DNA of 64,000 nucleotides from Bryobacteraceae bacterium (GCA_035293845.1 DATGMB010000240.1:1476-65475), one strand, 5' to 3'. Shown: positions 17,684-43,825, counted from the stretch's first letter. The notes: generated from the sequence alone by a model not told the origin. Program-made: numbers and translations.

Positions 17684-19078
17684 ATGATGCGACATTCCAT
17701 ACTATTTCGTGCGTTCTGGTTAAGTTTTGTGCCGGCCATGTTGCTGGCGCAGGGCACGCCGGACCCGCAGGCCAGGATCGCGGCGCTCGAGACCGCGGCG
17801 CGCAACGCGCAGAGCGCCGGAGACAACGCCTGGATGCTGGTGAGCTCCGCCCTGGTGCTGATGATGACCGGTCCCGGCCTGGCGCTCTTTTACGGCGGAC
17901 TGGTGCGGCGCAAGAACGTGCTCGGCACCATGATGCAGAGCTTCGTGCTGATGGCCGTCGTGACGGTGCTGTGGGCGGTGGTGGGGTACAGCCTGGCTTT
18001 CGGCTCATTTTCGCCGGTCGTGGGCGATTTGCGCTATGCCTTCCTGCACAACGTCGGCGCGGCGCCGAATCCGGATTACGCGGGCACCATTCCGCAGCAG
18101 ACGTTCATGGTCTACCAGTTGATGTTCGCGATCATCACGCCGGCGCTGATTTCCGGTGCGTTCGCCGAGCGGATGAAATTCAGCGCCATGCTGCTGTTCA
18201 CGGTGCTGTGGAGTCTGTTCATCTATTTCCCGATGGCGCACATGGTGTGGGGCAAGGGCGGGCTGCTGAATGCGTTTTTGGGCGGATCGATTCCGTGCTT
18301 CGATTTCGCCGGCGGGACGGTGGTGCACATCACCTCGGGCGTTTCGGCGCTGGTGTGCGCGCTGTATCTGGGCAGGCGCCTCGGTTACCCGTCGGTGCCG
18401 TTCAAGCCGCACAACCTGGTGCTCAGCTTCATCGGCGCCTGCCTGCTGTGGGTGGGCTGGTTCGGGTTCAACGCGGGGAGCGCGCTGGCGGCATCGAGCC
18501 TGGCGACCAGCGCATTTGTGGCGACGCATTTCGGCGCGGCGGCAGCGGCGCTGGGCTGGATGGCGGCCGAATGGATCGGGCACGGCAAGCCGAGCGTGCT
18601 GGGCGGAATCTCGGGCGCGGTCGCGGGGCTGGTGGCGATTACGCCGGCATCGGGCTTTGTGGAGCCGTTTCCGGCGCTGCTGATCGGCGCCTGCGCGGGC
18701 GTGGCCTGCTACTTCATGGTCACAGCCGTGAAGAGCAAGTTCGGGTATGACGATTCGCTCGATGCGTTCGGTGTGCACGGGGCCGGCGGAACGCTGGGGG
18801 CCATCCTCACGGGCGTGTTTGCCACCAGTGCGGTCAATGACGGGCTGAAGGATGCCGCGGGCAAGGTCCTGCCGCTGGGGCTGGTGGACGGCAAGCCGGT
18901 TCAGGTGTTATACCAAGCCGTGGGCGTGGCGATCGCGTGGGTGCTCGCCATCGTGGGGACGATTGTGATCCTGAAGATCTGCGACGCGCTGGTGGGCGTG
19001 CGGATCTCCAAGGAACAGGAGGTCGAGGGGCTCGACCTGAGCATGCACGGGGAGGAAGGATATATTTTCGAGGCGTAG
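17684..19078 (+). CDS. amtB: Ammonium transporter
   Basis: The signal-like N-terminus is MMRHSILFRAFWLSFVPAMLLAQG. Amt motifs are AFAERMKFSAMLLF, DFAGGTVVHITSG and FGVHGAGGTLGAI. Confidence 0.9.
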   Translation: MMRHSILFRAFWLSFVPAMLLAQGTPDPQARIAALETAARNAQSAGDNAWMLVSSALVLMMTGPGLALFYGGLVRRKNVLGTMMQSFVLMAVVTVLWAVVGYSLAFGSFSPVVGDLRYAFLHNVGAAPNPDYAGTIPQQTFMVYQLMFAIITPALISGAFAERMKFSAMLLFTVLWSLFIYFPMAHMVWGKGGLLNAFLGGSIPCFDFAGGTVVHITSGVSALVCALYLGRRLGYPSVPFKPHNLVLSFIGACLLWVGWFGFNAGSALAASSLATSAFVATHFGAAAAALGWMAAEWIGHGKPSVLGGISGAVAGLVAITPASGFVEPFPALLIGACAGVACYFMVTAVKSKFGYDDSLDAFGVHGAGGTLGAILTGVFATSAVNDGLKDAAGKVLPLGLVDGKPVQVLYQAVGVAIAWVLAIVGTIVILKICDALVGVRISKEQEVEGLDLSMHGEEGYIFEA

Positions 19079-19081
19079 CTC

Positions 19082-19420
19082 ATGAACAAGATCGAAGCGA
19101 TTATCCAGCCGTTCAAGCTCGACGAGGTGAAGGAGTCTCTCAAGGCCATCGGCATCGATGGCATGACCATTACGGAAGTGCGGGGCCACGGCCGGCAGAA
19201 GGGCCATAAAGAGGTCTACCGCGGCCAGGAATACAATGTCGACCTGTTGCCCAAGGTGAAGATCGAGCTGGTGGTGCCGGCGGAGCGCAAGGACGAGGTG
19301 ATCCGTACGCTCAGCTTCGCGGCGCGCACCGGCAAGATCGGCGACGGCAAGATCTTCGTCTACGAGGTGGCCGAGGCCATTCGGATCCGCAATGACGACC
19401 GTGGAGACGCCGCCCTCTGA
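19082..19420 (+). CDS. glnK: Nitrogen regulatory protein P-II
   Basis: The 112-aa product reads MNKIEAIIQPFKLDEVKESL...TITEVRGHGRQKGHKEVYRGQEY (T-loop Tyr51). It lies 3 nt downstream of amtB. Confidence 0.95.
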   Translation: MNKIEAIIQPFKLDEVKESLKAIGIDGMTITEVRGHGRQKGHKEVYRGQEYNVDLLPKVKIELVVPAERKDEVIRTLSFAARTGKIGDGKIFVYEVAEAIRIRNDDRGDAAL

Positions 19421-21773
19421 CCTGCTGACGCTGGCGGAGCGGACGGCACAGGTGGACCGGCTGGCGGCAGAGGTAGAGGATCTGCCGCACCAGGGATTTG
19501 CTCTGCTGGCGGTCGGGGGCTACGGGCGCCGGCACCTGTTTCCGTATTCCGATATCGACTTGCTGCTGCTGTTCGAATCCGAGCGGCTGATGACGGCGTC
19601 GAAGCCCGCCATCGCGGCGTACCTGCAGCGGCTCTGGGATGCGGGGCTGCGGGTGAGCCAGTCCGTGCGGACGCCGGCGGAGTGCCTGCAGGTCCACCCG
19701 GATAATATCGAATTGAACGTCAGCCTGCTCGACCAGCGGTACCTGGCGGGCGACCGCGCGCTATACGCGGAGCTCGCGCGCCGGCTGCCGCACTTCCTGC
19801 AGGCGAGCCGCGAGCCGCTGGCCCGCAACCTGACGCAACTGGCGCGGCAGCGCCACGCGCGCTACGCGGACACCTTCTACCATCTGGAGCCGAACGTCAA
19901 GGAAGGGCCGGGCGGGCTGCGCGATTATCAGCTCCTGCGCTGGCTCGACCAGTTACGGGACAGCGGGGGGAGCGAGCCCCCCGCCGAGTTGCGCGAGGCG
20001 TTCGCCTCGCTGGCGCACATCCGCTGCTTCCTCCACCAGCAGGCCGGGCGCGACCAGAACGTGCTCACCTTCGACGCGCAGGATGCGCTGGCCGAGCACG
20101 AGCACGCGGGCGACTCCGCCGCGTGGATGCGCGGCTACTACCGGCACGCGCGCGCGGTGTTCCGCGCCGCGGCGCGAGCGATGGAAAATTCCGAAGCGCA
20201 CGCGAGCGCCCTGTTCGCGCAGTTCCGCGACCGGCGCTCGCGGCTCAGCAATGCCGATTTCAGCGTGCTGCGCGGGCAGGCGCATTTCCGGACGCCGCAA
20301 CGGCTCGCGGCGCAGCCGGAATTCGTGCTGGAGCTGTTCGAATTCACCGCGCGGCACGGTGTGCGGCCATCCTTCGAAGCCGAGCAGCAGATCCAGGACC
20401 GGCTGCCGCAGTTGCGCCGCCATTTCGCGGAGCCGCCGGGCGCGCCGCTGTGGCCGGCGGTTTCCCGCATTCTGGAGCTGCCGCACGCTGCCGCCGCGGT
20501 GCGCGCCATGCACGACTGCGGGGTGCTGGGCGCGATTTTTCCGGAGCTGGATGGAATCGAGTGCCTGGTCGTGCGGGACTTCTATCATCGATACACGGTC
20601 GATGAGCACACGCTGGTGGCGCTCGACAAACTCGCGGCGGCGGACGGGCCATTCCGCGATCTGCTGGCGGAAGTTCGGGCGCCCGCGGTGCTCCGCTTCG
20701 CCTTGCTCTTCCACGATTCGGGCAAAGCGGCCGGGGAAGGCCACGTGGATGCGGGCCTCCGGCTGGCGGAAGCCGCGGCGCGCCGCATCGGCATGCCGCC
20801 GCCGGAGCGCGATACGGTCTTGTTCCTGATCCGCCGTCACCTGGATCTCTCCGCGGCGATGCGGTCGCGCGACCTGTTCGACCCGGAAGCGATCCACGCG
20901 CTGGCGCAGCAGGTGGAAACGGTGGAGCGGCTGAAGGCGCTGGCGCTCCTCACGTACGCCGATATCAGCGCCGTGAATCCCGCCGCGATGACGCCGTGGC
21001 GCGCCGAGCAGCTCTGGCAGCTCTACCTGATGCTTCACGCGGAATTCACGCGGGAGCTGGAATCGGAGCGCGTGGAGGCAGCGGATTCCGACTTCCTGCG
21101 CGGTCTGCCGACGCGGTACCTGCGGACCCACACGCCGGAAGAGATCGAGATGCACCTGGCGCTCGAAGCGCGCCGGGCGAGCGCGCCGGGCGGCGTGGCC
21201 GTGGATTTGCGGCGCCTGGACGCTGCGTGGCAGCTTACGCTGATCGCAGGCGACCGCCCCGGCCTGTTCGCTGCCGCCGCCGGGACCATCTCCAGCTTCG
21301 GGATGAACATCGTCCGGGCGGAGGCATTCGCCAACAGCCAGGGCCTGGTGCTCGATACATTCGCGTTCGAGGATCCGCACCGCACGCTGGACCTCAACCC
21401 GCCGGAAGTGGAAAGGCTGCGCGCCACGGCCGAACGCGTGATTGCGGGCAAGCTGAACGTGCGCGATCTGCTGCGCCATCGGCCGAAACCGCCGCTGCCG
21501 AGCCGCAAAGCGGCATTCGCGCCGCGGATTTCGTTCGATTCGGACGCCAGCCGGTCCGCCACGCTGGTGGAAATTGTCGCGCAGGACCGGCCGGGGCTGC
21601 TGTACGATTTGGCCTCGGCGATTTCAGCAAGCGGGGCCAATATCGAGGTGGTGTTGATCGATACGCAGGCGCATAAGGCGATCGACGTGTTCTACGTGAC
21701 CGCTGGCGGGCACAAGCTGGATGAGCAGCGGCAGGCGGCGCTGGGCGAGGCGCTGCGTAAGGCGGCGGGATAG
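19392..21773 (+). CDS. glnD: [Protein-PII] uridylyltransferase/uridylyl-removing enzyme
   Basis: The nucleotidyltransferase motif is GGYGRRHLFPYSDIDLLLLF and the HD domain reads LLFHDSGKA. Two C-terminal ACT-like repeats follow. The ORF overlaps glnK by 29 nt, so the true start is uncertain. Confidence 0.9.
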   Translation: MTTVETPPSDLLTLAERTAQVDRLAAEVEDLPHQGFALLAVGGYGRRHLFPYSDIDLLLLFESERLMTASKPAIAAYLQRLWDAGLRVSQSVRTPAECLQVHPDNIELNVSLLDQRYLAGDRALYAELARRLPHFLQASREPLARNLTQLARQRHARYADTFYHLEPNVKEGPGGLRDYQLLRWLDQLRDSGGSEPPAELREAFASLAHIRCFLHQQAGRDQNVLTFDAQDALAEHEHAGDSAAWMRGYYRHARAVFRAAARAMENSEAHASALFAQFRDRRSRLSNADFSVLRGQAHFRTPQRLAAQPEFVLELFEFTARHGVRPSFEAEQQIQDRLPQLRRHFAEPPGAPLWPAVSRILELPHAAAAVRAMHDCGVLGAIFPELDGIECLVVRDFYHRYTVDEHTLVALDKLAAADGPFRDLLAEVRAPAVLRFALLFHDSGKAAGEGHVDAGLRLAEAAARRIGMPPPERDTVLFLIRRHLDLSAAMRSRDLFDPEAIHALAQQVETVERLKALALLTYADISAVNPAAMTPWRAEQLWQLYLMLHAEFTRELESERVEAADSDFLRGLPTRYLRTHTPEEIEMHLALEARRASAPGGVAVDLRRLDAAWQLTLIAGDRPGLFAAAAGTISSFGMNIVRAEAFANSQGLVLDTFAFEDPHRTLDLNPPEVERLRATAERVIAGKLNVRDLLRHRPKPPLPSRKAAFAPRISFDSDASRSATLVEIVAQDRPGLLYDLASAISASGANIEVVLIDTQAHKAIDVFYVTAGGHKLDEQRQAALGEALRKAAG

Positions 21774-21784
21774 CGGGCGCCGGG

Positions 21785-22222
21785 TCAGTCGCGCCGGTAG
21801 ATGCGCTTGATGCGGTGTTGCGATCCAACCAGTCCGAAGGCGAGGCCGTCGCCGGCCGTGCCGATCGATGGGGCAACGTAGTTGGGGTGAGCCGCTATCG
21901 CCGCCAGCGGGAAAAGGGCCGCTGCCGTAGCGCCGGCCGCGATGCCGCCGAAGAGCAGCGCCCGGTGGACACGTTCGGCGTGCGAACGGAAAATATAGAC
22001 GTCATCCACGTCGGCCTTCTGCACCGTCACCTGGCCGGTCTGTGTTTCCAGGGTGACCGCGTCCGCGCTGGCGCGAACGAATTTCCCCGCGTTCGTGACG
22101 AAGCCCGAGGTCACCATGATCGGAGCCCCGGCTTGCATCGCCTCCACTTGCTGCCAATCGGCCCGGCCGGCGCCCGCCAGCAGGAACAGGCCGCTAACGA
22201 GAAGAATCAGTTGCTTGGGCAT
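21785..22222 (-). CDS. Hypothetical secreted/membrane protein (145 aa)
   Basis: The product has a signal peptide (MPKQLILLVSGLFLLAGAG) and a C-terminal Gly/Ala-rich hydrophobic segment. I recognise no family. Confidence 0.5.
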   Translation of the reverse strand: MPKQLILLVSGLFLLAGAGRADWQQVEAMQAGAPIMVTSGFVTNAGKFVRASADAVTLETQTGQVTVQKADVDDVYIFRSHAERVHRALLFGGIAAGATAAALFPLAAIAAHPNYVAPSIGTAGDGLAFGLVGSQHRIKRIYRRD

Positions 22223-22381
22223 CGGTAGAGATTGTATGCAATTCCGGAAGCGAAGGGAAGCCCGGGTCGCAGGCCTTGGCGTTATGGCTAATCGGGCATC
22301 AGCACCGGGATGACCCGGTTACTGTGCCGGCAGGAGGCACGGCAGGGCTAAGTCGCGCAGGCTCGCGCAACACGCTCACGA

Positions 22382-22524
22382 CCAGGGCCAAAAAACAATC
22401 CGCTATCCTGAAGAGAACGGGCATGCGGGACCCCATCCACATTATCGGCGGCGGGCTGGCGGGCAGCGAGGCGACGTGGCCGGCAGCGCTGGACGAGGCG
22501 CTGCGGAAGGCTGCCGGGTAGCGG
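22382..22524 (+). pseudogene. Chimeric remnant: copy of the trmFO promoter and first 19 codons fused in frame to a copy of the last ~13 codons of glnD
   Basis: 22382-22480 aligns to 22954-23050 at about 88% identity (58-nt coding part: 4 mismatches). 22482-22524 aligns to 21734-21776 (37/43). The encoded peptide is MRDPIHIIGGGLAGSEATW|PAALDEALRKAAG*. Confidence 0.75.
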
Positions 22525-22536
22525 ATCGAGGCCGAT

Positions 22537-22911
22537 ATGCAGCGGCTCCGAGGCAGAGTGGTCAGCGGGCGCGCGAATTTCGGCTTTTGGATCGAACGCC
22601 TGAATGCGTTCTACGCTGAGAAGACCGGTATGCGGCTGTACCCAGGAACGCTCAATATCGAACTGCCCGCTCCGTATTCTCTACCGGCGAGTGTCCTGCG
22701 GCTAGAAGCGAAGGAGTATGGAGGAACCGTCTCGGTGAGCATTGTACCGTGCCGGATTTTCGATCGCCCTGCTTTTCTGCTCCGCACGGATCCAAATGAA
22801 CAAGGTACAGGGCATCACTCGCGGAACATCATCGAGATCGCGACGGATGTTCGGCTGCGGGATATTTTTCAACTGAAGGACGGAGATTGGGTAGAGGTCG
22901 AATTGCCGTGA
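22537..22911 (+). CDS. DUF120 / archaeal-type CTP-dependent riboflavin kinase-like protein (124 aa)
   Basis: The product reads LRGRVVSGRANFGFW...RLYPGTLNIEL...VPCRIFDRPAFLLR...IIEIATDVRLRDIFQLKDGDWVEVEL, which matches the RibK-like pattern G.V.SG...PGTLN...PC.I...EI.A...LR..L.LKDGD.V. GC is markedly lower than in the flanks. Confidence 0.7.
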   Translation: MQRLRGRVVSGRANFGFWIERLNAFYAEKTGMRLYPGTLNIELPAPYSLPASVLRLEAKEYGGTVSVSIVPCRIFDRPAFLLRTDPNEQGTGHHSRNIIEIATDVRLRDIFQLKDGDWVEVELP

Positions 22912-22992
22912 ACCTGCCTTCTGGCGAGCAAACAGGCTCATCACGACCCCGAGCCAGGGCGAAAATCAATCGGCTATCCTGAAGGTTCGGGC

Positions 22993-24327
22993 ATGCGGGA
23001 ACCCATCCACATCATCGGCGGCGGGCTGGCCGGCAGCGAGGCGGCGTGGCAGATTGCGCGGCGGGGCGGGCGGGCCATCCTCTACGAAATGCGTCCGGTG
23101 CGGCCCACACCGGCGCATCGCTCGGACCGCCTGGCCGAGCTGGTGTGCAGCAACTCGCTCAAATCGGAGCAGGAGAACACCGCGTCCTGGCTGCTCAAGG
23201 AGGAGCTGCGGCGCTGCGATGCGCTGCTGCTGCGCGCGGCCGAAAAGGCGCGCGTGCCCGGCGGCCACGCGCTCACGGTGGACCGCGAGATCTTTTCCGC
23301 CGAGGTGACGGCGGCGGTGGCGGGCGAGCCGCGCATCGAGCTGCGGCGCGAGGAAGTCACGCGCATCCCGGAGGGCATCGTCATCATCGCCACCGGCCCG
23401 CTCACCAGCGATGCGCTGGCGCAGGAGATCGGCCGGCTGACCGGCTCGGACCGCTTGTTTTTCTTCGACAGCATCAGCCCGATCGTGGAGGCCGATTCGG
23501 TCGATACCTCGATCGCATTCTGGGCTTCGCGCTATGGCAAATCGAGCACGGGCACGGACGATTACCTGAACTGCCCGCTAGATCGCGAGCAGTACGAGCG
23601 CTTCGTGGACGAGCTGCTGCGTGCGGAAAGTGTGGCTTCCCACATCGAGGAGAGCGGCACGCCCTTTTTCGAAGCCTGCCTGCCGATCGAAGAGCTGGCG
23701 CGGCGCGGGCGCGATACGCTCCGTTTCGGTCCCATGAAGCCGATGGGGCTCATCGACCCGCGCACCGGACGGAGACCCTGGGCCGCGGTGCAGTTGCGGC
23801 AGGAAAACCTGCGCGCCGACAGCTTCAATCTGGTCGGGTTTCAGAACCACCTGAAGTTCGGCGAGCAGGCGCGCATCCTCCGCATGATTCCCGGCCTCGA
23901 GCGCGCCGAGTTCCTGCGCTACGGCCAGATCCATCGCAACACGTACATCAACGCGCCGGCGCTCCTCACGCCAACGCTGCAACTGCGCGCGCGGCCGGAA
24001 GTGTTTTTCGCCGGTCAGATTTCGGGCGTGGAGGGTTACGTGGAGTCCATCGCGACCGGCCTGATGGCCGGGATGCATGCCGCCGCGCTCGCCTCCGGAA
24101 GCGAGCCCCGGCCGCTCGCTGCCGCCACCGCGATGGGCTCGCTCTGCCGCTACGTCTCGGGCGCCGACCCCAATCGCTACCAGCCGGCCAACATCACCTT
24201 CGATCTGCTGCCGCAGCTCGATCCCGAGACGTATCAGCGGCTGCGGCACGACAAGAAGGCGCGCCACGCCGAGGTCTGCCGCCGCGCTCTGGAAGCGCTG
24301 GATCAATACCTGCATGTCCACGTCTGA
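22993..24327 (+). CDS. trmFO: Methylenetetrahydrofolate--tRNA-(uracil54-C5)-methyltransferase
   Basis: The FAD motif is IHIIGGGLAGSEAAWQIA. Family motifs include ELVCSNSLKS and VFFAGQISGVEGYVES. The product is 444 aa. Confidence 0.92.
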   Translation: MREPIHIIGGGLAGSEAAWQIARRGGRAILYEMRPVRPTPAHRSDRLAELVCSNSLKSEQENTASWLLKEELRRCDALLLRAAEKARVPGGHALTVDREIFSAEVTAAVAGEPRIELRREEVTRIPEGIVIIATGPLTSDALAQEIGRLTGSDRLFFFDSISPIVEADSVDTSIAFWASRYGKSSTGTDDYLNCPLDREQYERFVDELLRAESVASHIEESGTPFFEACLPIEELARRGRDTLRFGPMKPMGLIDPRTGRRPWAAVQLRQENLRADSFNLVGFQNHLKFGEQARILRMIPGLERAEFLRYGQIHRNTYINAPALLTPTLQLRARPEVFFAGQISGVEGYVESIATGLMAGMHAAALASGSEPRPLAAATAMGSLCRYVSGADPNRYQPANITFDLLPQLDPETYQRLRHDKKARHAEVCRRALEALDQYLHVHV

Positions 24328-25258
24328 GGATCGGGCCGGGCATGCCCGGCCCCTACAGCCGGCCTCGGAGCTTGCGCGCCAGATCGATCGGTACCGGCAA
24401 GAACTGGTGCGGACCGGCGCCTCGCCCCACACGGTGGACGCTTACGCCGCGGACCTGGCGCAGTTCCTCGAATTCCTCTCGCCGCCCGAAGCCGCGCCGC
24501 CCGCGCCATCGGCGGTCGATCTGCTGATCCTGCGCGAGTGGCTGGCGTGGCTTTACGGGCAGAAGCTCGATCCAGTCACCATCCGGCGCAAGCTGGCGGC
24601 GGTGCGCGGGCTGTTCCGCTTCATGCTGCGCGAAGGCGCGGTCCCGGTCAACGTGGCGCGGCTGGTGCGGACGCCACGCGCGGCGAAACGCCTGCCGGAA
24701 GTGCCTTCGGCCGAACAGGTGAACAGCCTGCTCGATGGGGTGGCCGCGCGCAAGCTCGAGCGGCCGCACCCGGCGCGCGACCGCGCCATTTTCGAGCTGC
24801 TCTACGGTTGCGGCATGCGGGTCAGCGAGCTCGCCGGATTGAACTTGGAGGACATCGACCGCACCGCCGGCTGGCTGCGGCTGCGCGGCAAAGGCCGCAA
24901 GGAGCGCCAGGTGCCGCTGCCGCGCCAGGCGGCGGAGGCGCTGGAGCGGTATCTGGGCGAGCGGCCCGTGGTCCGCGACGAGCCGGCCGTGCTTCTGAAC
25001 CACCGCGGACGACGCCTCACGCGGCAAGGCATCGCCGGGATCGTCAAGCTCTACGCCACGTGCCTGGCCGGCGACCCCTCGCTGCATCCTCACAGCTTCC
25101 GCCACGCGTATGCCACGCATCTGCTTTCGGCCGGAGCCGATCTGCGCGCGATTCAGGAGTTGCTCGGCCACGCCCGGCTTTCCACCACGCAGAAGTACAC
25201 GCAGGTCTCGCTCACCGATCTGATGGCGGTGTACGATAAGGCGCACCCCAAGGCGTAG
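24314..25258 (+). CDS. xerC: Tyrosine recombinase XerC/XerD
   Basis: I chose the start at MSTSEDRAG, which overlaps the trmFO end by 14 nt. Catalytic motifs are ARDRAIFELLYGCGMRVSE, HSFRHAYATHLL and LGHARLSTTQKYTQV. Confidence 0.85.
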   Translation: MSTSEDRAGHARPLQPASELARQIDRYRQELVRTGASPHTVDAYAADLAQFLEFLSPPEAAPPAPSAVDLLILREWLAWLYGQKLDPVTIRRKLAAVRGLFRFMLREGAVPVNVARLVRTPRAAKRLPEVPSAEQVNSLLDGVAARKLERPHPARDRAIFELLYGCGMRVSELAGLNLEDIDRTAGWLRLRGKGRKERQVPLPRQAAEALERYLGERPVVRDEPAVLLNHRGRRLTRQGIAGIVKLYATCLAGDPSLHPHSFRHAYATHLLSAGADLRAIQELLGHARLSTTQKYTQVSLTDLMAVYDKAHPKA

Positions 25259-25263
25259 CCTGC

Positions 25264-26664
25264 ATGTCCCTCGCCCTGGCAGATCTGAAACGGGAATTCC
25301 GTCCCATGCTGCGGCTGGCCGCGCCGCTGGCAGCGGCCGAGGTCGGCGGGATGGTGATGGGCATCGTGGATACCATCATGGCCGGGCCGCTCGGCCCGGC
25401 GGCGGTGGGAGCGGGAATCCTGGGGAACATGATCTTCTATCCCCTGGCCAGCAGCTTCATCGGCATGCTGCTCGGCATGGATACGCTGGTGGCGCAATCG
25501 CATGGCGCGGGCGATCCGCGCGACTGCCGCCGCACCCTGATCAATGGATTCTGGCTCGGCCTGCTGATCACGCCGTTGATCGCCGGCCTGATCCTGGCGG
25601 CTCTGCCGATCATCGCCGCCTCTGGCGCCAATCCGCGGGTCATGGAGCAGTGCACGCCCTACGCGCACGCGCTGCTGTGGGGAATTCCGGCGTTTATGCT
25701 CGCCACGGCGTTCCGGCGCTATCTGCAGGCGGTGGATATCGTGCACCCGATCACGTTCGCGCTCGTCAGCGCCAACGCGGTCAATGTCGCGGGCGACTGG
25801 GCGCTGATGTACGGCCATCTGGGCGCGCGCGCGATGGGCCTGGCGGGATCCGGATGGTCGACCTCCCTTTCGCGCTTGTACATGATGCTGGTGCTCGGGG
25901 GCGCGGTGGTGTGGAACGAGCGGCGAACGGGCGGACTGCTCTTCCGGATGAGCTGGCGGCCGGATCTGGCGCGCCTCCGCCGGCTCATCGCGCTCGGGCT
26001 GCCGGCCACCGGGCAGATTGCGTTCGAAGGCGCGGTCTTCGGCGTCGTCACGGTGCTGGCGGCCCGGCTGGACGCGGTCTCTCTTGCCGCCCACGGGATC
26101 GCTGTGCAGGTCATCGCCACCACATTCATGGTGCCGCTGGGGATCAGTTCCGCCGCCGCGGTGCGGGTCGGGCAGGCAATGGGACGCAAGGACGCGCGCG
26201 GCGTGGCCGCGGCCGGATGGGCGGCCCTGCTGCTCAGCAGCCTGTTCATGGGCGCGGCCGGCGTCGCGCTGTGGACTGTGCCTCGCTGGATCGTGCGCGT
26301 ATTCATCGCCGATGCCGCCGTGATCGCATCGGGCGCGGTGCTGCTGCGCATCGCCGCGTTCTTCGAGCTGTTCGACGGCCTGCAGATCGTGGCCACCGGC
26401 GCGCTAAGGGGCGTTGGCGACACGCGCACGCCGATGATCGCGCACCTCATCGGCTACTGGGTCATCGGGATGCCGGTGGCGTATGCGCTTTGCTTCCGAT
26501 TCGGCTGGGGCGCGCCCGGAATCTGGGTCGGGCTGAGCGCCGCGTTGATCCTGATCGGAGCGGCGCTGGTGTGGGTGTGGCGATCGGCGGCCCTCAAAAA
26601 CTCCAGAGAACGCTCGTATACCCCGTATTCGCGTGAAAGTTCTGGTAGTAGCCCAATAAATTGA
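25264..26664 (+). CDS. MATE-family multidrug/toxin efflux transporter
   Basis: The 466-aa product has a ~12-TM profile. Its N-terminus LKREFRPMLRLAAPLAAAEVGGMVMGIVDTIMAG is typical of NorM/DinF-type MATE proteins. Confidence 0.85.
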   Translation: MSLALADLKREFRPMLRLAAPLAAAEVGGMVMGIVDTIMAGPLGPAAVGAGILGNMIFYPLASSFIGMLLGMDTLVAQSHGAGDPRDCRRTLINGFWLGLLITPLIAGLILAALPIIAASGANPRVMEQCTPYAHALLWGIPAFMLATAFRRYLQAVDIVHPITFALVSANAVNVAGDWALMYGHLGARAMGLAGSGWSTSLSRLYMMLVLGGAVVWNERRTGGLLFRMSWRPDLARLRRLIALGLPATGQIAFEGAVFGVVTVLAARLDAVSLAAHGIAVQVIATTFMVPLGISSAAAVRVGQAMGRKDARGVAAAGWAALLLSSLFMGAAGVALWTVPRWIVRVFIADAAVIASGAVLLRIAAFFELFDGLQIVATGALRGVGDTRTPMIAHLIGYWVIGMPVAYALCFRFGWGAPGIWVGLSAALILIGAALVWVWRSAALKNSRERSYTPYSRESSGSSPIN

Positions 26665-28666
26665 ATTGCTGGTTGTAGTTATAAAACTGATATCCCGCGT
26701 TCCAACGGAGTTTCTCCGAGATCCGGATCGATAAGCGCGCCATCGGCGCGTGATAGGTCAGCGGGAACGTCTGCACGGAATCGAGCAGCGATGCGATCGG
26801 GTCCGTAACGCCCGCGGGCGCCGGGGCGGGCCGCCCGTCGCCCGTATCTTTCGTGATCGAATATCCGAGGTACACATCCGCGCGCCGCCGGACGGCGAAG
26901 TGCGCCGCCAGCGTGCCGGAATGGATGTTGCTCAAGTAATACGACACATAGCCCGTTTGTAATTGCGTGCGGAAGCCGGCGCCGGCGAAGAACGCGAGGC
27001 CGCCGGTAGTGTCCAGGTGCAGCTTGAGGTAACTGGCGTCGATCGAAAACCAATCCCGCGGCGTCCAGGAGCCGCCCGCGCTGTACTGCCGCGAATGCGA
27101 ATCGAACGGCGTGAGTGTGGAGGGCGCGTTCAGGTTGTAATCCTGGCGGTATCCCGCGGAAAGCTGCACGCGGCGCGTGCGGTACTCGGCGCGGCCATGG
27201 ATCGAGTGGAAGTTCTTCTCGCTGACCGGCGTGAGCGGGTTATTCGACCGCCCGATGCCCGCGTCGAGGGTCACGCTGAAGGGCTTCCACGGCCGGAAGC
27301 GCACTCCGGCGCGCGCCGAGTTCATATGGTTGCTGACCTGGTAGACATCGTTCTCGGTGGAGTTGGCGAAGGCGGGAATGGTGAGCCCTTCCACGGTGCG
27401 CACGGGCCGGTCGGAGTAATCGTAGCCCGCGAAAAAGCCGAGCTTCGGGGTGAGCCGGTAATCTACGGTGGTCGCGTTGGTGTACATGCGCACGCCGAGA
27501 TAGCGGAAGTAAACCGTCGCGCCGGTGTTGAGCCCGTTGTCTAGTTCGGTGTAACTGGAAGGCCCGTCCGTGCGGTTGCTCAGCACCGATGTCCCGTTGG
27601 TCACGGTCAGCCGTTCGGTGGGAAATAACTGCACGGTGAAGTTGCCGGCGAGGTCGTCGCGATGGGCATTGCCGCCGGCAACGATCTGGCGGGCAGCGGC
27701 CGCGCCGAACTGGCTCGTGCCGAGCGCCAGCTCATCCAGCAGGAAGTCGTTATTGCCGCTGACATAGGTGAGACGCGCGTCCATACCCCAGCGTTTGCGG
27801 CGCGTGAACAGGTTGCCGAGCCAGCCGGGATTGGCGCCGTGGATGGGCGCGGCGCGGTTGAAGTGATTGAGCACGGTCTGGTCGCCCGGCGTGGCGGAGC
27901 CGATGGCGCCGGCGGCGGCCGAGTAGGGCGTGTCGTCCTTGAAAAAATCCCAGCGCCGCGTGACGGTGAAGCGGAATCCGGCAAAATCGAATTCGGCGCC
28001 CAGGCGGTACTCGTTCCAGTGGCGCTTTACATCCAGGAACACCGGGTAGCCGCTCCCGTTGGGATCGAACTCCTGCGCGGTGGAAAGCGCCGGGCCATCC
28101 TCCGTGTTCCGGCCGTAACCGAGGTGGAAGCGGATGCGCGACTGAGGGAACAGCGTCAGCTCGTGGTCCTGCATGCGCCGCTCGGTATCCATGCTGTGCA
28201 GCCCCTGGGTTGCGAGCAGCGGGACCGCGCCGGAAATGCCGAGACCGTAATTGCCCGTGGCGGTCAGGGCCGGATTGTAGTAATCGTCCAGGCGCCAGAG
28301 CAGATCGTACCGGTAGAGGCCGTTCTTTTCCGCGTGAAGCATGGCGGACTGGTACGGATCGCCGCCAAGGCCCAGAGTGTTCAGCAGAATCTCGTCGAAC
28401 AGGCGGCCGTGGCCGTCGCGGGAACGGATGGCGAAACTGCTCCCCAGCAGCCGCGCGCCATCATGGTAGTTATCGACGCTGCGGTACATGCCAAGATCGC
28501 CGCCCGGCATCGCCCAGCGGTAGCCGAGTTCCCAGGACTGCGTGATGTTGTAGTCGCTGCTGTTTTCGCCGCGCGGCCCGCCGACCTGCGCCGGGGTGGG
28601 CGCCACGGGTTCCTGGGCCGCCGCCGCCACTGCCAGTCCCACGAGAATGCAGATACGCGTCGCCAT
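26594..28666 (-). CDS. Outer-membrane beta-barrel protein, MtrB/PioB-like (690 aa)
   Basis: The start at ATG 28666 has a GAGGTG RBS, 5 nt after the decaheme gene stop. The signal peptide is MATRICILVGLAVAAAAQEP. Composition is rich in alternating Tyr/Gly/Asn/Arg strands and the C-terminus is ...SVLWSF. The family assignment rests on size and synteny only. Confidence 0.6.
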   Translation of the reverse strand: MATRICILVGLAVAAAAQEPVAPTPAQVGGPRGENSSDYNITQSWELGYRWAMPGGDLGMYRSVDNYHDGARLLGSSFAIRSRDGHGRLFDEILLNTLGLGGDPYQSAMLHAEKNGLYRYDLLWRLDDYYNPALTATGNYGLGISGAVPLLATQGLHSMDTERRMQDHELTLFPQSRIRFHLGYGRNTEDGPALSTAQEFDPNGSGYPVFLDVKRHWNEYRLGAEFDFAGFRFTVTRRWDFFKDDTPYSAAAGAIGSATPGDQTVLNHFNRAAPIHGANPGWLGNLFTRRKRWGMDARLTYVSGNNDFLLDELALGTSQFGAAAARQIVAGGNAHRDDLAGNFTVQLFPTERLTVTNGTSVLSNRTDGPSSYTELDNGLNTGATVYFRYLGVRMYTNATTVDYRLTPKLGFFAGYDYSDRPVRTVEGLTIPAFANSTENDVYQVSNHMNSARAGVRFRPWKPFSVTLDAGIGRSNNPLTPVSEKNFHSIHGRAEYRTRRVQLSAGYRQDYNLNAPSTLTPFDSHSRQYSAGGSWTPRDWFSIDASYLKLHLDTTGGLAFFAGAGFRTQLQTGYVSYYLSNIHSGTLAAHFAVRRRADVYLGYSITKDTGDGRPAPAPAGVTDPIASLLDSVQTFPLTYHAPMARLSIRISEKLRWNAGYQFYNYNQQFNLLGYYQNFHANTGYTSVLWSF

Positions 28667-28671
28667 GCGGT

Positions 28672-29613
28672 TCACCTCAGGAAATACTGGTCGGCATTGG
28701 ACCCGTGAATGCGCACGTGGCACGCCGTGCACCGCTGGAATCGGGGGTCGAGCAGATTGTGCCGCGCCGATTGAATATCCACGCCCTGGTTGCGCGTGCC
28801 GGAGCCGCCGCCGTTGTGGCATTCCAGGCAGAGCGTGAACACCACCGGCCGCCGCAGCAGGCGGGCATTCATCGAGCCGTGCGGATAATGGCAAGTGTTG
28901 CAGCCCTCCACCGCCACCGAGGGATGCTCGTAAACGAACGGCCCGCGCTTATCCGCATGGCATTTCAGGCACGGCTGCTCATTGCCCAGAGCCTGCTCGA
29001 CCATGCGCGGCCGCTGCCCCATCGCGGAGGTGGGAGCGAAGGCGCCGTGCGGATTGTGGCAGTCCGAGCATTCCATGAAGCCCTCGTCGACGCGGTGTTT
29101 CGAGGGCATGGCGAACTGCGCGCGAATGGTGGCGTGGCAGGTATAGCACAGCTCGTGCTCCGGCTTGGCCAGCAGGTGGCGGGACGCGGAGGAATGGTGG
29201 ATCGAGTGGCAGTTCGTGCAGGCCACACCGTTCAACGTGTGCTCCGAGCGCTGGATGTTGACCTTGCCGAAATCGCGCGCGTGGCATCCCAGGCAGTCCT
29301 CCATCACCTGGGCGGTGGTCATGAGCGAGAACGCGTGCGGAATCGTCGCCTTGCCGCCGCGCGCCTCCACGTGCGCCGCGCCCGGGCCGTGGCAGCCCTC
29401 GCAGCCGCTCCGCGCCGGCGGCGCGTCGCCCGAAACCAGGGTCTTGAAATGCGGATTGCGGTAAAAATTATGCCAGACGTCCGGATGGCAAGTGCGGCAC
29501 GCGTTGCTTCCCACGAAGCCGCCGGGGGCGTGGGTTACGTTCAATTGGGTCTGCGCCGCCGCCACCCCCACCCACACCAAGAACCAAAGGACCAGCCACC
29601 CGGCGCGTGCCAT
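28672..29613 (-). CDS. Periplasmic decaheme c-type cytochrome, DmsE/MtrA/PioA/MtoA family
   Basis: The 313-aa product has a signal peptide and exactly ten CXXCH motifs: CRTCH, CEGCH, CLGCH, CTNCH, CYTCH, CSDCH, CLKCH, CNTCH, CLECH, CTACH. The C-terminus is CTACHVRIHGSN. Confidence 0.85.
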   Translation of the reverse strand: MARAGWLVLWFLVWVGVAAAQTQLNVTHAPGGFVGSNACRTCHPDVWHNFYRNPHFKTLVSGDAPPARSGCEGCHGPGAAHVEARGGKATIPHAFSLMTTAQVMEDCLGCHARDFGKVNIQRSEHTLNGVACTNCHSIHHSSASRHLLAKPEHELCYTCHATIRAQFAMPSKHRVDEGFMECSDCHNPHGAFAPTSAMGQRPRMVEQALGNEQPCLKCHADKRGPFVYEHPSVAVEGCNTCHYPHGSMNARLLRRPVVFTLCLECHNGGGSGTRNQGVDIQSARHNLLDPRFQRCTACHVRIHGSNADQYFLR

Positions 29614-40465: not shown

Positions 40466-43400
40466 ATGAACCGCCTGATCGCTGCCGTAGCGATTCCCGC
40501 CGCGTTCGCCGCGGCGGCGCTTGCCCAGACGCCATCGGTCACCTTCCTGGGCATGGATACCACCACGCGTGGAAACTGGAAAGGAGTATACGGATCGGAT
40601 GGCTATGTGCTATCCGATTATGCGCTCGCCGTGCCTTCCTACAGCCAGTTCAACGCCGTCAACGTCAATCAACGGCTGCTGGATACCTGGAGCTGTTCGC
40701 CCGACCCGGGCTTCACCTGCGATCCCCGCGAGTTGCAAAAGCAGCCCTACGCCTACAGCCCGCTCGAGCGCGTCGAAGGTTATTACTATAGCCGGATGTC
40801 GGACGATTTCCAGTTAAGCACCACCGACGGGCAGACTCACCGTATTGCGCTCTACTTTTGCGACTATGAGTTCTACGGGCGCCAGATTAGCGTAATCGCA
40901 CATAACACCAATACCGGTGCGGTTCTCGACACCCGCACGCTGAATAACTACTCCGGCGGCGTGTACCTCGTCTATAACTACACCGGCAACGTGGATTTCG
41001 AGGTCCTCGATAACATCGTGCCCACCACCGACTACATCCCCAACGGCACCGTCAGCGGCTTCTTCTGGGGTGGCTCGGGCGGCCCGCCCACGCCCGCGCC
41101 CAATGGCCCGGTGGTGAATTTCAGCCCGCTCGGCCCGCAGTCCGGGGCGGTGGTTTCCGGCACGGTGCCGATCCAGGTCTCGCTCGATGACGTTCCCGGC
41201 GTCACCAGCGTACAGCTCCAGCTCGATGGCCAGAACCTCGGGGCGCCCATGCAGTACTTCGTCACCAATCCGATCGGCAACCCGCCGGTGCCGCTGCCCT
41301 TCAACTACAACTGGGACACCACCACCGCAACCAACTGCTCCCATACCCTGACCGCGATCGCCATCGACGCGAATGGATTCCAGGGGGCTTCGCCGGCGCT
41401 CACCCTGACCGTGAATAACGGCCCGTCCAACTGCGGCAACAATCCCACGCCCGTCGCCACTCCGACGTTCAGCCCACTGCCCGGCGCATTCAACACGACC
41501 CAGCAGGTCTCACTGAACACCACCACACCCGGCGCCTCGATCCGCTACACCACCGATGGCGTCACCAACCCCACGGACACGGGCGGCACGCTGTACACCG
41601 GGCAGCCCATCACGGTCGCGAGCACTACCACGATCAAAGCGATCGCCTACGAATCCGGCATGCCGGACAGCAGCATCGCCACCGGAACCTATACGATCAA
41701 CACCGGACCCCGCGGCGGCGGAACGCTGGGCCTGGTGCAGTCGAATGGCGCCGCCAGCGGAGCGCCCGGCAATACTTACCAAACCGTCGCTTTCAATAGC
41801 CCGGTTGCGGGCGGCGATACGATTTTCGTCTTCGCGCAATACTACGGTCCGGCTGTCACGGCCACCGCCACCGATACCTGCAACGACCAGTTCACGCCGA
41901 TCTCCGGCTCGCCGGTCAGCAACGGCTCGAGCGGCACGGCGCATTGGTGGGTGGCGAAGAACGTGGCCGGCGGCAACTGCCAGGTGACCGTGAGCTACAG
42001 TTCGCCCACTTCCTACGGCGGCATCGCCATCCTGGAGGTCTCCGGCCTCGGTCCGAATCCGGCGCTCGATCAGCAGGGCAGCGGAACCGGCAACAGCGGT
42101 ACGGCGTCCGCTTCCCTCAACGCCTCCGTCGCGAACAGCTTCGCCATCGCGCAGGTCTGGTCGGATGCCGGTGGCGGCGTCTCGCTGGGCGGTAACTGGA
42201 CCACCCAGGAGCGCACTCGCTTCTCCACGCTCTACCAGAGCAACATGGCGGGCTGGCAGATTTTGTCCGCGCCCGGTGCGGCCGGGGTCTCTGCCGCGGT
42301 GGGCAGCGGGCCATGGATTGCGATGGTGGCCAATTTCTATAACCCCGGCGGCAGCCCCGGCCAGGTCGCGAACCCGGCGTTCAATCCGCCCGGCGGCGCT
42401 TACACGTCGCCGGTCGCGATCAGCACCACGACCGCGGGCGCCACCATCCGCTACACCACGGACGGCAGCACGCCCTCGGAAACGAACGGAACCATTTACA
42501 CCGCGCCGATCGCGCTGAGCGCCACCACCACCATCAAAGCGATCGCCTATAAATCCGGCCTGACCGATAGCGGCGTCGTCAGCGCAACCTATACCGTAAG
42601 CAAGGGGACCGTGGCCAGCCCGGTGTTCAATCCGCCGGCCGGGGCCTACACCATGCCGGTGGCCATCAGCAGCGCGACACCGGGCGCGACCATCCGCTAC
42701 ACCATCGACGGCAGCACACCATCCGAGACGCACGGCACGGTTTACAGCGCGCCGATCACGCTGGCCGCGACCACGACCATCCAGGCGATCGCTTATGAGA
42801 GCGGGTATACCGATAGCCCCGTGGTCTCCGCCACCTACACCGTCGGAGCGCCGCCGGGCATTTCGCTCGTGCAGTCCAACGCCACCGCGACGTCCGCGCC
42901 CGGCAATACCAGGCAGTCGGCCGCGTTCAGCTCGCCCACGGCCGCCGGCAACACGATTTTCGTGTTCGTCCAGTATTACGGCCCAGCCGTGACCGCCACC
43001 GCCACCGACACCTGCGGCGACCAGTTCCAGGAAATCTCCGGCTCGCCCGTTTCCAACACCAGCGGCGACCGCGGCGCGGCCCACTGGTTCCTCGCGAAGA
43101 ACATCGGCGGCGGCTCCTGCATGGTGACCGTGAACTACAGCTCGCCGACCAACTACGGCGGCGTCGCCATCTTCGAAGTGTCCGGCCTCGGCGCGAATGT
43201 GATTCTCGATCGGTCCGCCAGCGGCTCGGGCACCGGCGGAACGGCTTCGGCATCCATCGCGACCACCCACCCGAACAGCTTCGCCATCGCGCAGGTCTGG
43301 TCGGATGCCGGCGGCGGCGTTTCGCTGGGCGGCAACTGGACGACCCAGGAACGTACCCGCTTCTCGACGCTCTACCAGAGCAACATGGCCGGTTTCCAGG

Positions 43401-43489: not shown

Positions 43490-43525
43490 TTCACACTGCG
43501 CCGCGCCTGGCCGATAAGCCAGACT

Positions 43526-43825
43526 GTGACGCGGTTCTGGAATGACGCTCTGGCAATCCTCGATACGGCGAGCCGGGCGCCCGAGGCTGGCGCGGCAAAC
43601 GGCCTGGCCGTAGTGGTCGAGCGCTCCGGCGGCTTGCGGATTGTGATGGGCGAAGGCTGGAGCGCCGAAGGCCTGCAAGCGCACTTCGGCGCCTCCGCGG
43701 TCTACCAGGTGACACATTCGCCGCGGTCCGTATGTGTCGAAGGCCGCGGCCCCGGCGAGAGCTGCACCCTGCGCCGCTCCGTTGTAGGGCAGGTCCATGG
43801 CCTGCCTTACGCTCTCCTTTCCTGA
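43526..43825 (+). CDS. Hypothetical small protein (99 aa, GTG start)
   Basis: The ORF has high GC3 and fits the 37-nt gap before the next gene if that gene starts at 43863. I recognise no family, and it could be non-coding. Confidence 0.3.
   Translation: MTRFWNDALAILDTASRAPEAGAANGLAVVVERSGGLRIVMGEGWSAEGLQAHFGASAVYQVTHSPRSVCVEGRGPGESCTLRRSVVGQVHGLPYALLS

What the first reader, a model, noticed from the sequence alone, without database searches (positions are those of the whole stretch)
21734..23050. Chimeric trmFO-5'::glnD-3' junction: footprint of Campbell-type or tandem integration that added a second cassette between glnD and trmFO
Reading left to right, the order is: glnD 3' end (…AALGEALRKAAG* at 21734-21776), a minus-strand secreted-protein gene, a diverged copy of the trmFO upstream region plus its first 19 codons (22382-22480, ~88% identical to 22954-23050), a diverged copy of the last ~43 nt of glnD abutting it at ~22480/22481 (22482-22524, 37/43 identical), the DUF120 gene, and finally the intact trmFO promoter and gene. 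A trmFO-5' to glnD-3' join is exactly the novel junction created when a circularised (or tandemly duplicated) glnD3'-X-trmFO5' segment recombines into the trmFO-5' homology. The locus now carries two alternative inserts side by side, the secreted-protein gene and the DUF120 gene. The 7-14% divergence between copies suggests a homeologous donor (a related strain whose glnD-trmFO spacer carries DUF120) or an old event. The duplicated promoter, RBS and ATG (22423) open a 32-codon chimeric ORF ending 15 nt before the DUF120 ATG. The cargo may therefore be expressed from a captured trmFO promoter.
Basis: seen in the sequence. Interest (0 to 1): 0.7.

Follow-up and report, generated by a model that had tools for sequence, protein, structure and literature searches.

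The report
Two-cargo recombination scar between glnD and trmFO
In this soil Acidobacterium (family Bryobacteraceae), the gap between the core genes glnD and trmFO is a small gene-swapping hotspot, and this strain carries two different versions of the gap joined head to tail, with a leftover trmFO-start/glnD-end stub at the join; it is a real and tidy example of a known kind of genome evolution, not a new system.

Summary
A copy of the trmFO upstream region plus codons 1-19 (22354-22479) abuts a copy of the last 12 glnD codons plus the stop codon (22483-22524). Both copies score far above shuffled controls. Ten independently assembled metagenome contigs carry the same structure, so it is not an assembly artefact.

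glnD-trmFO adjacency is limited to a narrow clade (TrmFO at least 87% identical). Within that clade the interval is a small hotspot free of mobile elements:
- empty in three lineages;
- an RHH+PIN toxin-antitoxin pair in one;
- an HTH_17 gene plus a 136-aa gene in same-species strains;
- SEC, a PIN-gene remnant, the stub and DUF120 in the window.

The differences between each stub and its functional copy are mostly at third codon positions (8 of 10, p=0.003). The two units therefore diverged as working genes in separate lineages.

Best explanation: two diverged alleles of the hotspot were joined by one illegitimate exchange at a GGCAG microhomology and one homologous exchange. A linear donor (homology-facilitated illegitimate recombination) and a circular donor (Campbell-type integration) give the same product.

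No SEC-only or DUF120-only parental allele was found. Promoter capture is plausible but untested. This is a new member of a known kind, of modest interest.

The parts
19392..21773 (+). glnD (PII uridylyltransferase), intact; left core gene flanking the hotspot
   Evidence: 793-aa ORF; PF08335 plus ACT domains. The amtB-PII-glnD order is conserved in about 80 relatives.
21730..21776 (+). functional copy of the glnD 3' end (repeat copy A, including the TAG stop and the following CGG)
   Evidence: Repeat family D3 and D9.
21785..22222 (-). SEC: 145-aa gene with a signal-peptide-like N-terminus and no family match; cargo of unit 1
   Evidence: ORF; no Pfam or NCBIfam match. Only 22 homologs, 58-80% identical, in unrelated contexts. 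Nucleotide homology to those loci spans 21783-22265.
22288..22331 (-). remnant of the C-terminus and stop codon of a PIN (VapC-like) toxin gene; relic of an older RHH+PIN cargo
   Evidence: Encodes ..RHSNRVIPVLMPD*, against ..RHGNKVIPVLMPD* in the PIN gene that L187 carries at the same site. 21-nt exact match; local alignment score 45 against a shuffle maximum of 28. PF01850 and RHH_1 annotations in L187.
22354..22422 (+). stub copy of the trmFO upstream (promoter-like) region, including GCTATCCTGAAG
   Evidence: Repeat D2/D8, 72% identical to 22925-22984. A TAYNNT-G(A/G)A element recurs upstream of trmFO in relatives.
22423..22479 (+). stub copy of trmFO codons 1-19
   Evidence: 4 differences from 22993-23049, 3 of them at third codon positions. 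Homology to relatives' trmFO stops at 22480 in most.
22478..22482 (+). novel junction; reads GGCCG where both parental genes read GGCAG (trmFO TGG CAG, glnD CGG CAG)
   Evidence: Read directly from the sequence.
22483..22524 (+). stub copy of the last 12 glnD codons, the TAG stop and CGG
   Evidence: 36/42 identical to 21735-21776; 5 of 6 differences are synonymous third-position changes. No other sampled glnD 3' end matches it.
22423..22521 (+). 32-codon chimeric ORF (TrmFO residues 1-19 fused in frame to the GlnD C-terminal 12 residues); ends 15 nt before DUF120
   Evidence: Called as a 32-aa gene in the contigs. The exact peptide is in the collection as a singleton cluster.
22537..22911 (+). 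DUF120 / CTP-dependent riboflavin-kinase-like gene; cargo of unit 2; GC 56% against 65.5% for the window
   Evidence: PF01982, E=1.4e-10; ribK_Meth, E=3e-12, below the curated cutoff. GC values. Nucleotide homology to relatives covers only 22535-22914. The native upstream motif is lost.
22925..22992 (+). functional trmFO upstream region (repeat copy B')
22993..24327 (+). trmFO, intact; right core gene flanking the hotspot
   Evidence: PF01134, E=3e-90.
24314..25258 (+). xerC-like tyrosine recombinase; context only, a conserved neighbour of trmFO
   Evidence: PF00589 and PF02899. It follows trmFO in about 70 of 80 relatives, none of which has glnD upstream.

Best explanation
The glnD-trmFO interval is a small horizontal-transfer hotspot with no mobile-element genes. 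Different alleles of it, each with its own cargo and its own slightly diverged glnD end and trmFO promoter/start, circulate among related Bryobacteraceae lineages by homologous recombination in the flanking core genes.

The window carries a composite made from two such alleles:
- Unit 1: glnD end, SEC, a decayed PIN toxin gene, the trmFO promoter and codons 1-19.
- Unit 2: the last 12 glnD codons, DUF120 placed 15 nt after the glnD stop, the trmFO promoter and trmFO.

The two units were joined by one illegitimate exchange and one ordinary homologous exchange in a long flank. The illegitimate exchange used the 5-nt microhomology GGCAG, which is shared by trmFO codons 19-20 and by a site 13-14 codons before the glnD stop. 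The homologous exchange lay either in trmFO (if DUF120 came in) or in glnD (if SEC came in).

This is the product expected of homology-facilitated illegitimate recombination (HFIR) with linear donor DNA. It is equally the product of Campbell-type integration of a circularised fragment.

Consequences:
- Both core genes stay intact.
- DUF120 is cut off from the glnD operon by the convergent SEC gene. It now lies behind a spare copy of the trmFO promoter region and a 32-codon in-frame upstream ORF, which probably drive its expression.
- The 11-17% divergence of the repeats should slow loss of either unit by recombination.

Shown: the anatomy, the reproducibility, the variable occupancy of the site, the third-position bias, the microhomology and the PIN remnant.
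Inferred: the exchange mechanism, the order of events, expression and stability.
For: Repeats far above chance.

Same structure in 10 contigs from 10 samples and several assemblers, with one SNP in total across the region.

Site occupancy in the clade that shares amtB-PII-glnD-[ ]-trmFO-xerC-MatE:
- empty in L106 (85 nt), the P0150 contig (182 nt) and L189-L193 (112 nt);
- RHH+PIN in L187;
- HTH_17 plus a 136-aa gene in L105, L185 and L186, whose flanks are 95-97% identical to the window.

No integrase or transposase in any cargo.

The interiors of the two units are unrelated genes.

8 of 10 stub-versus-functional differences are at third codon positions and 7 of the 10 changed codons are synonymous (binomial p=0.0034). 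The copies therefore diverged while both were parts of working genes.

Over a 102-nt core, the stub copy, the functional copy and L185 are about equidistant (83-86%), although the window and L185 flanks differ by only 2-6%.

Window-L185 divergence rises toward the site: about 2% at 19300-20500, about 5% at 20600-21699, about 10% in the last 77 nt of glnD and 6 differences in the first 47 nt right of the insert. Mosaic tracts in L083 and L186 show active recombination between strains.

The PIN remnant shows earlier cargo turnover in unit 1.

The junction lies where both parental genes read GGCAG. This falls within the 3-10 bp range summarised for HFIR in PMC6382021.

Against: - Neither parental single-cargo allele (glnD-SEC-trmFO or glnD-DUF120-trmFO) was found. 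The nearest SEC and DUF120 homologs (80% and 86% aa) lie elsewhere in their genomes. No sampled glnD 3' end matches the glnD stub.
- The two window copies of the trmFO upstream region share about 30 nt and three small motifs that L185 and L187 lack. An in-situ duplication would also produce this.
- The stub reads GGCCG, not GGCAG, so the microhomology is inferred from the functional copies.
- The third-position test rests on only 10 differences.
- Natural competence of these bacteria is unknown.
- The simple sigma-70 scan finds no promoter in either upstream copy. There are no expression data.
Confidence: 0.7

Rival explanations
1. In-situ tandem duplication. A segment running from glnD codon -14 to trmFO codon 19 was duplicated within this lineage by slipped or illegitimate sister-strand exchange at GGCAG. 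The two copies later acquired different interiors through cargo replacement, and the functional gene ends were overwritten by recombination with relatives.
For: The junction topology is that of a tandem duplication. The two upstream copies share about 30 nt and the motifs CCAGGGC, CAATC and GAAG, which L185 and L187 lack. Strain-level recombination capable of overwriting the flanks is evident.
Against: The interiors share no homology at all (SEC plus PIN remnant against DUF120). At least two further replacement events are therefore required. The third-position bias of the differences is not what neutral decay of non-functional stubs would give. No intermediate form was seen.
Confidence: 0.15
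2. Site-specific cassette insertion. The cargos are inserted and excised by a recombinase, for example the XerC-like enzyme encoded just downstream of trmFO, at a defined attachment site, as with integron cassettes or Xer-dependent integrative elements. The stub would then be part of a cassette boundary.
For: Several small cargos, in both orientations, occupy exactly the same intergenic site. A tyrosine recombinase gene lies one gene away.
Against: xerC follows trmFO in about 70 of 80 relatives, none of which has glnD or a cargo site upstream, so it looks like a housekeeping gene. No shared repeat or attC-like inverted repeat bounds the cargos; the inverted repeats found are weak. The cargo boundaries differ between alleles. 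The join uses pieces of the two core genes themselves rather than a common attachment sequence.
Confidence: 0.04
3. Artefact or chance. The duplication is either a mis-assembly of two co-occurring strains or a chance similarity in GC-rich sequence.
For: The sequences come from metagenomes containing related strains, and L083 may be a chimeric contig.
Against: Ten contigs from ten samples, built by different assemblers, agree across the junction. The join has at most 5 nt of overlap, too short for a k-mer assembler to bridge without reads that span it. The alignment scores are far above shuffled controls.
Confidence: 0.02

Closest known systems
Horizontal-transfer hotspots without mobile elements, flanked by core genes and diversified by double homologous recombination (Oliveira, Touchon and Rocha 2017, PMC5635113)
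   Same: The same pair of flanking core genes holds different small cargos or nothing in related genomes. No integrase or transposase lies in the cargo. Divergence and mosaicism are elevated in the flanking genes near the site.
   Different: This hotspot is very small (0-1.2 kb) and lies in uncultured Acidobacteria. The window allele is not a clean replacement: it holds two alleles in tandem with a visible scar, which simple double homologous exchange does not produce.
[quoted passage not shown] 2002; Meier and Wackernagel 2003, as summarised in PMC6382021)
   Same: One end of the new DNA could have been anchored in long homology (glnD or trmFO). The other end is joined at a short GC-rich microhomology (GGCAG, within the 3-10 bp range). 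The donor was diverged from the recipient.
   Different: HFIR was defined in laboratory transformation of Acinetobacter, Pseudomonas stutzeri and Streptococcus pneumoniae. Here it is inferred from a natural product only; competence, RecA dependence and donor form are unknown. In this case the 'foreign' part is itself flanked by homeologous copies of the recipient's own genes.
Campbell-type (single-crossover) integration of a circular molecule, giving direct repeats of the homology region around the insert
   Same: Direct repeats of the homology region bracket an inserted segment, and the junction is the one a circle closed between the trmFO 5' end and the glnD 3' end would carry.
   Different: The repeats are only 47-127 nt long and 72-89% identical, poor substrates for a RecA crossover. 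There is no replicon, integrase or att site, and no circular form has been observed.
Type II toxin-antitoxin modules (VapBC-like RHH+PIN) as small cargo in variable genome regions
   Same: L187 carries an RHH+PIN pair at this site, and the window keeps a decayed C-terminal piece of the same PIN gene.
   Different: In the window the module is non-functional: only 14 codons remain. The two present cargos (SEC, DUF120) are not toxin-antitoxin genes.

Membership tests
Core-gene-flanked HGT hotspot (PMC5635113) | The same flanking core genes hold variable gene content in related genomes | tested here: met
   Four states are seen between glnD and trmFO: empty (L106, the P0150 contig, L189-L193); RHH+PIN (L187); HTH_17 plus a 136-aa gene (L105, L185, L186); SEC plus DUF120 (window, L081-L090)..
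Core-gene-flanked HGT hotspot (PMC5635113) | No recognisable mobile-element genes in the cargo (the MGE-free subclass) | tested here: met
   Pfam and NCBIfam give no integrase or transposase in any cargo. The neighbouring xerC follows trmFO in about 70 of 80 relatives, none of which has glnD or a cargo upstream.
Core-gene-flanked HGT hotspot (PMC5635113) | Elevated homologous recombination or diversity in the flanking core genes | tested here: inconclusive
   Window-L185 divergence rises from about 2% to about 10% approaching the site, and mosaic tracts occur in L083 and L186. This rests on a few pairwise comparisons, with no genome-wide baseline.
HFIR product | Illegitimate junction at a short (3-10 bp), usually GC-rich microhomology | tested here: met
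   Both functional genes read GGCAG at the join, and the stub reads GGCCG at 22478-22482. The length range is taken from PMC6382021.
HFIR product | The other end is integrated by homologous recombination in an anchor sequence | not testable with these tools
   The parental alleles are not sampled, so the homologous crossover point cannot be located.
HFIR product | RecA-dependent uptake of linear DNA by a naturally competent cell | not testable with these tools
   The organism is uncultured and there is no experimental access.
Campbell-type integration | Direct repeats of the homology region flank the inserted DNA | tested here: met
   The trmFO upstream/5' repeats flank the glnD stub plus DUF120, and the glnD 3' repeats flank SEC through to the trmFO stub.
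Campbell-type integration | A circular donor, and repeats long and similar enough to support the single crossover | tested here: inconclusive
   The repeats are 47 nt at 85%, and about 127 nt at 72-89%. The longest perfect runs, read from the sequences, are 17 nt and 11 nt. A circular form cannot be observed with these tools.
Simple tandem duplication | The two units are homologous along their whole length | tested here: not met
   Unit interiors are unrelated: SEC plus the PIN remnant (minus strand) against DUF120 (plus strand), with no nucleotide similarity between them.
Integron-like or site-specific cassette array | Conserved recombination sites (attC-like inverted repeats or a common core) at the cassette boundaries, plus a dedicated integrase | tested here: not met
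   No such repeats were found around the cargos. Boundaries differ between alleles. The only recombinase nearby is the conserved xerC.
DUF120 / CTP-dependent riboflavin kinase (PF01982) | Full-length match to the domain model above the curated cutoff | tested here: met
   PF01982: 41.6 bits against a cutoff of 25, residues 8-122 on model positions 1-120 of 121. The NCBIfam equivalog ribK_Meth scores only 46.5 against 168, so enzymatic equivalence to archaeal RibK is not established.

The most novel reading that the evidence does not exclude
The heteroallelic tandem could be a maintained two-way genetic switch rather than a passive scar. Recombination between the two glnD-end repeats would excise SEC, and recombination between the two trmFO-start repeats would excise DUF120. 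One chromosome could then regenerate either single-cargo allele, and the site might be serviced by a dedicated, still unrecognised mechanism, possibly involving the adjacent XerC-like recombinase. The 32-codon chimeric ORF would act as a selected leader that couples DUF120 translation to a spare trmFO promoter.
Probability: 0.05. Interest if true: 0.6.

Novelty: new member of a known kind. Interest (0 to 1): 0.3.

Why it matters
This is a clear natural example, in an uncultured soil Acidobacterium, of how a hotspot free of mobile elements gains cargo. It shows two diverged alleles stacked by one microhomology join and one homologous exchange, with an older toxin-antitoxin relic still visible.

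Such scars are rarely preserved well enough to read the mechanism. This one supports the view that recombination anchored in flanking genes, including its illegitimate variant known from laboratory transformation, shapes accessory gene content in nature.

It also gives a testable case of promoter capture by an imported gene. It does not reveal a new molecular system.

Tried and rejected
- Searched 80 GTDB relatives with TrmFO as query. None has glnD, SEC or DUF120 within 6 kb upstream of trmFO, so they could not supply single-cassette forms.
- Followed the closest DUF120 homologs (P0002, P0004, P0005, P0006) and SEC homologs (P0122, P0123, P0128) to their contigs. All lie in unrelated contexts.
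- Looked for a donor by matching the two stubs against every glnD 3' end and trmFO 5' end collected. Nothing matches the glnD stub, and the trmFO stub is only 92% identical to L185.
- Considered DUF120's low GC as a sign of distant foreign origin. Its closest homologs are equally low in GC but sit in 57-60% GC relatives, so the likely source is a lower-GC Bryobacteraceae lineage and not a remote phylum.
- Tested whether the hairpin motif of the empty site (GTAAGGGAGCG) is a dispersed REP-like element present in the window. It is not: one 1-mismatch hit, as expected by chance.
- The simple sigma-70 and terminator scan gave nothing useful at the stub.
- Pfam and NCBIfam could not classify SEC or the 136-aa gene of L185, so I do not call the latter a PIN toxin.
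- The original HFIR paper (PMC122324) is not held in the library.
- Assembly artefact and chance similarity were rejected.

Full report
**1. Observation**

The window around 21700-23100 reads, left to right:
- the end of glnD (stop codon at 21771-23);
- a minus-strand 145-aa gene, here called SEC (21785-22222);
- a copy of the trmFO upstream region and the first 19 trmFO codons (22354-22479);
- directly abutting it, a copy of the last 12 glnD codons plus the stop codon (22483-22524);
- a DUF120 gene (22537-22911);
- the real trmFO upstream region (22925-22992) and trmFO itself (22993-24327).

The trmFO-5' pair aligns at 113/132 overall and 89% over the ungapped 72-nt core. The glnD-3' pair aligns at 40/47. 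Alignment scores are 144 and 59, against dinucleotide-shuffle maxima of 41 and 34. In about 40 relatives, homology between their trmFO and the stub mostly stops at 22480.

The stub opens a 32-codon ORF (22423-21). It reads TrmFO residues 1-19 fused in frame to the GlnD C-terminus, and it stops 15 nt before the DUF120 ATG.

**2. Is the structure real?**

The exact DUF120 protein is encoded on at least 12 contigs. The ten I retrieved come from ten different ENA, JGI and Logan samples and from different assemblers. All carry glnD, SEC, the 32-aa ORF, DUF120 and trmFO as far as each contig extends. Across 21700-23100 they are identical to the window, apart from one SNP at 22343 in two contigs. The join has at most 5 nt of overlap, which an assembler cannot bridge without reads that span it. 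An assembly artefact is therefore very unlikely. Read mapping would be the formal proof.

**3. Context in relatives**

The window belongs to Bryobacteraceae (Acidobacteria), judging from the record titles of the closest loci.
- Among 80 GTDB species representatives with TrmFO 72-85% identical, none has glnD, SEC or DUF120 within 6 kb upstream of trmFO. About 70 of them have xerC right after trmFO.
- Among 80 metagenome loci retrieved with the GlnD C-terminus, only the two closest have trmFO downstream.

glnD-trmFO adjacency therefore defines a narrow clade (TrmFO at least 87% identical). Within this clade the order amtB-PII-glnD-[site]-trmFO-xerC-MatE is conserved, but the content of the site varies:
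- Empty: an 85-nt spacer in L106, 182 nt in the P0150 contig, and 112 nt in L189-L193.
- A minus-strand RHH+PIN toxin-antitoxin pair in L187, whose TrmFO is 92% identical.
- A plus-strand HTH_17 (excisionase-like) gene and a 136-aa gene in L105, L185 and L186. These have TrmFO 99% identical and flanks 95-97% identical to the window, so they are the same or a sister species.
- The SEC plus DUF120 composite in the window type.

No cargo encodes an integrase or transposase. This matches the hotspots without mobile elements that are described as diversifying by double homologous recombination in flanking core genes (PMC5635113).

**4. The two cargos**

*DUF120.* It is a common Bryobacteraceae gene, with more than 1300 homologs, many of them 77-86% identical. 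In every relative examined it sits in a different, unrelated neighbourhood.
- Nucleotide homology to those loci covers only the ORF plus or minus 3 nt (22535-22914).
- The upstream motif conserved in relatives (TGCTAGGTTTGA, then 5-6 nt, then ATG) is missing in the window, where the glnD stub stands in its place.
- Its GC content is 56% in a 65.5% window. Its closest homologs have 53-55% GC and lie in loci of 57-60% GC. It therefore looks like an import from a lower-GC member of the family that has not yet drifted to the host's composition.

*SEC.* It has only 22 homologs (58-80% identical), none of them near glnD or trmFO. Its GC content matches the host.

No variant at 90% identity or more of SEC, DUF120 or the chimeric peptide exists in the 15-billion-protein collection. 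So neither parental single-cargo allele has been sampled.

**5. An older layer**

Between SEC and the stub, on the minus strand, 22288-22331 encodes ..RHSNRVIPVLMPD*. This is the C-terminus of the PIN toxin that L187 carries at the same site (..RHGNKVIPVLMPD*). The match includes 21 exact nucleotides, and the local score is 45 against a shuffle maximum of 28. Unit 1 therefore descends from an RHH+PIN allele. That allele later lost most of the toxin-antitoxin module and gained SEC next to glnD.

**6. Where did the two copies diverge?**

In the coding parts of the stubs there are 10 differences from the functional copies. Eight are at third codon positions, and 7 of the 10 changed codons are synonymous (binomial p=0.0034 against an expectation of one third). 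Non-functional stubs decaying in place would show no such bias. Most of the divergence therefore arose while each copy was part of a working glnD or trmFO in a separate lineage.

Over a 102-nt core, the stub copy, the functional copy and L185 are roughly equidistant (83-86%), although the window and L185 flanks differ by only 2-6%. Each hotspot allele thus carries its own old boundary sequences. Divergence between the window and L185 rises toward the site.

Mosaic tracts show that recombination between strains is active here. L083 switches from 20-25% divergence to identity at about 20050. L186 is identical to the window over 24900-27300 but 2-6% divergent elsewhere.

One caveat: the two window copies of the upstream region share about 30 nt and three small motifs that L185 and L187 lack. 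The two parental alleles were therefore close relatives of each other.

**7. The junction**

At the join, trmFO reads TGG CAG and glnD reads CGG CAG. The exchange therefore lies in a shared GGCAG, which reads GGCCG in the stub at 22478-82. This is a short GC-rich microhomology of the size reported for homology-facilitated illegitimate recombination, 3-10 bp (PMC6382021).

**8. Mechanism**

The simplest history needs one illegitimate exchange at GGCAG between two diverged alleles, and one homologous exchange. There are two equivalent routes with a linear donor:
- The donor is [glnD end-DUF120-promoter-trmFO...]. The homologous crossover lies in trmFO beyond codon 19, and the illegitimate join attaches the donor's left end to the recipient's trmFO codon 19.
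- In the mirror image, SEC is the incoming part and the anchor lies in glnD.

Either route reproduces the structure as a normal double exchange. That route, however, needs a crossover within 47-127 nt of 72-89% identity, whereas the linear route can use kilobases of flanking homology. I therefore favour the linear (HFIR-like) route, but I cannot exclude the circular one.

A plain tandem duplication is excluded because the unit interiors are unrelated. Duplication followed by cargo replacement needs more steps and does not explain the codon bias.

A site-specific mechanism is unlikely. No shared boundary repeats exist, the boundaries differ between alleles, and xerC is a conserved neighbour of trmFO even where there is no site.

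**9. Function**

In the donor-type unit, DUF120 starts 15 nt after the glnD stop, so it was probably read through from the amtB-glnB-glnD operon. In the composite, the convergent SEC gene intervenes.

The stub supplies a copy of the trmFO upstream region, including GCTATCCTGAAG. A TAYNNT-G(A/G)A element recurs 10-25 nt upstream of trmFO in many relatives. This suggests a -10-like promoter element with a short leader, although the simple sigma-70 scan finds nothing.

The in-frame 32-codon ORF ends 15 nt before the DUF120 ATG, and a GAGG lies 7-10 nt upstream of that ATG. Expression of DUF120 from the captured promoter is therefore plausible, but it is inference only.

The divergence of the repeats should slow recombinational loss of either unit. 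The uniformity of the ten contigs is consistent with a stable arrangement.

**10. Verdict**

- It is unproven in its specifics: whether the intermediate was circular, which lineage was the donor, and whether the promoter is used.
- New here are the hotspot character of the site, the empty and alternative alleles, the PIN relic, the codon-position evidence and the microhomology.
- This is a well-preserved instance of known processes, not a new system. Interest is modest, at 0.3.

Noticed in passing
L083 (ERZ27279670 k141_796714), corresponding to window about 18614-20050 versus 20050-28911: The contig is identical to the window to the right of about 20050 (inside glnD), but 20-25% divergent to the left (amtB, PII, glnD 5'). 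It is either a natural recombinant strain or a chimeric contig end.
   Followed up: partly
window 24900-27300 versus L186 and L185: L186 has essentially no differences from the window over about 2.4 kb (1 in 24900-27299) but 2-6% elsewhere, whereas L185 is 2-6% divergent throughout. This points to mosaic homologous recombination between co-occurring strains.
   Followed up: partly
window 24300-24399 (xerC 5' end, overlapping the trmFO 3' end): There are 30 differences per 100 nt between the window and L185/L186, in flanks that otherwise differ by 2-6%. The called XerC is also 304 aa in those strains against 314 aa here. This is a hypervariable or replaced N-terminal segment.
   Followed up: no
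L189 2745-2830 (empty glnD-trmFO spacer); related motifs in L106 and L107: The empty site holds a hairpin with a stem of about 25 bp (the 126-nt stretch folds at -65 kcal/mol, z=-5.7). It contains GTAAGGGAGCG / CGCTCCCTTAC, and similar motifs follow glnD in L106 and L107. It may be the glnD terminator or a REP-like element. It is absent from the window.
   Followed up: partly
L091 5980-6000, L094 4527-4547, L097 5980-6000 (upstream of DUF120 in relatives): A conserved TGCTAGGTTTGA motif lies 5-6 nt before the DUF120 ATG in otherwise unrelated contexts. It is probably the gene's own promoter or ribosome-binding region, and it is missing in the window.
   Followed up: no
window 41500-44800: Several families of diverged direct repeats (44-300 nt, 63-82% identical) with regular spacing. 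They look like domain repeats within a large gene and are unrelated to the finding.
   Followed up: no
L185 5255-5943; also L186 and L105: The alternative cargo is an HTH_17 (excisionase-like) gene overlapping a 136-aa gene with no Pfam or NCBIfam match. The arrangement resembles a toxin-antitoxin pair, but the second gene could not be classified.
   Followed up: partly
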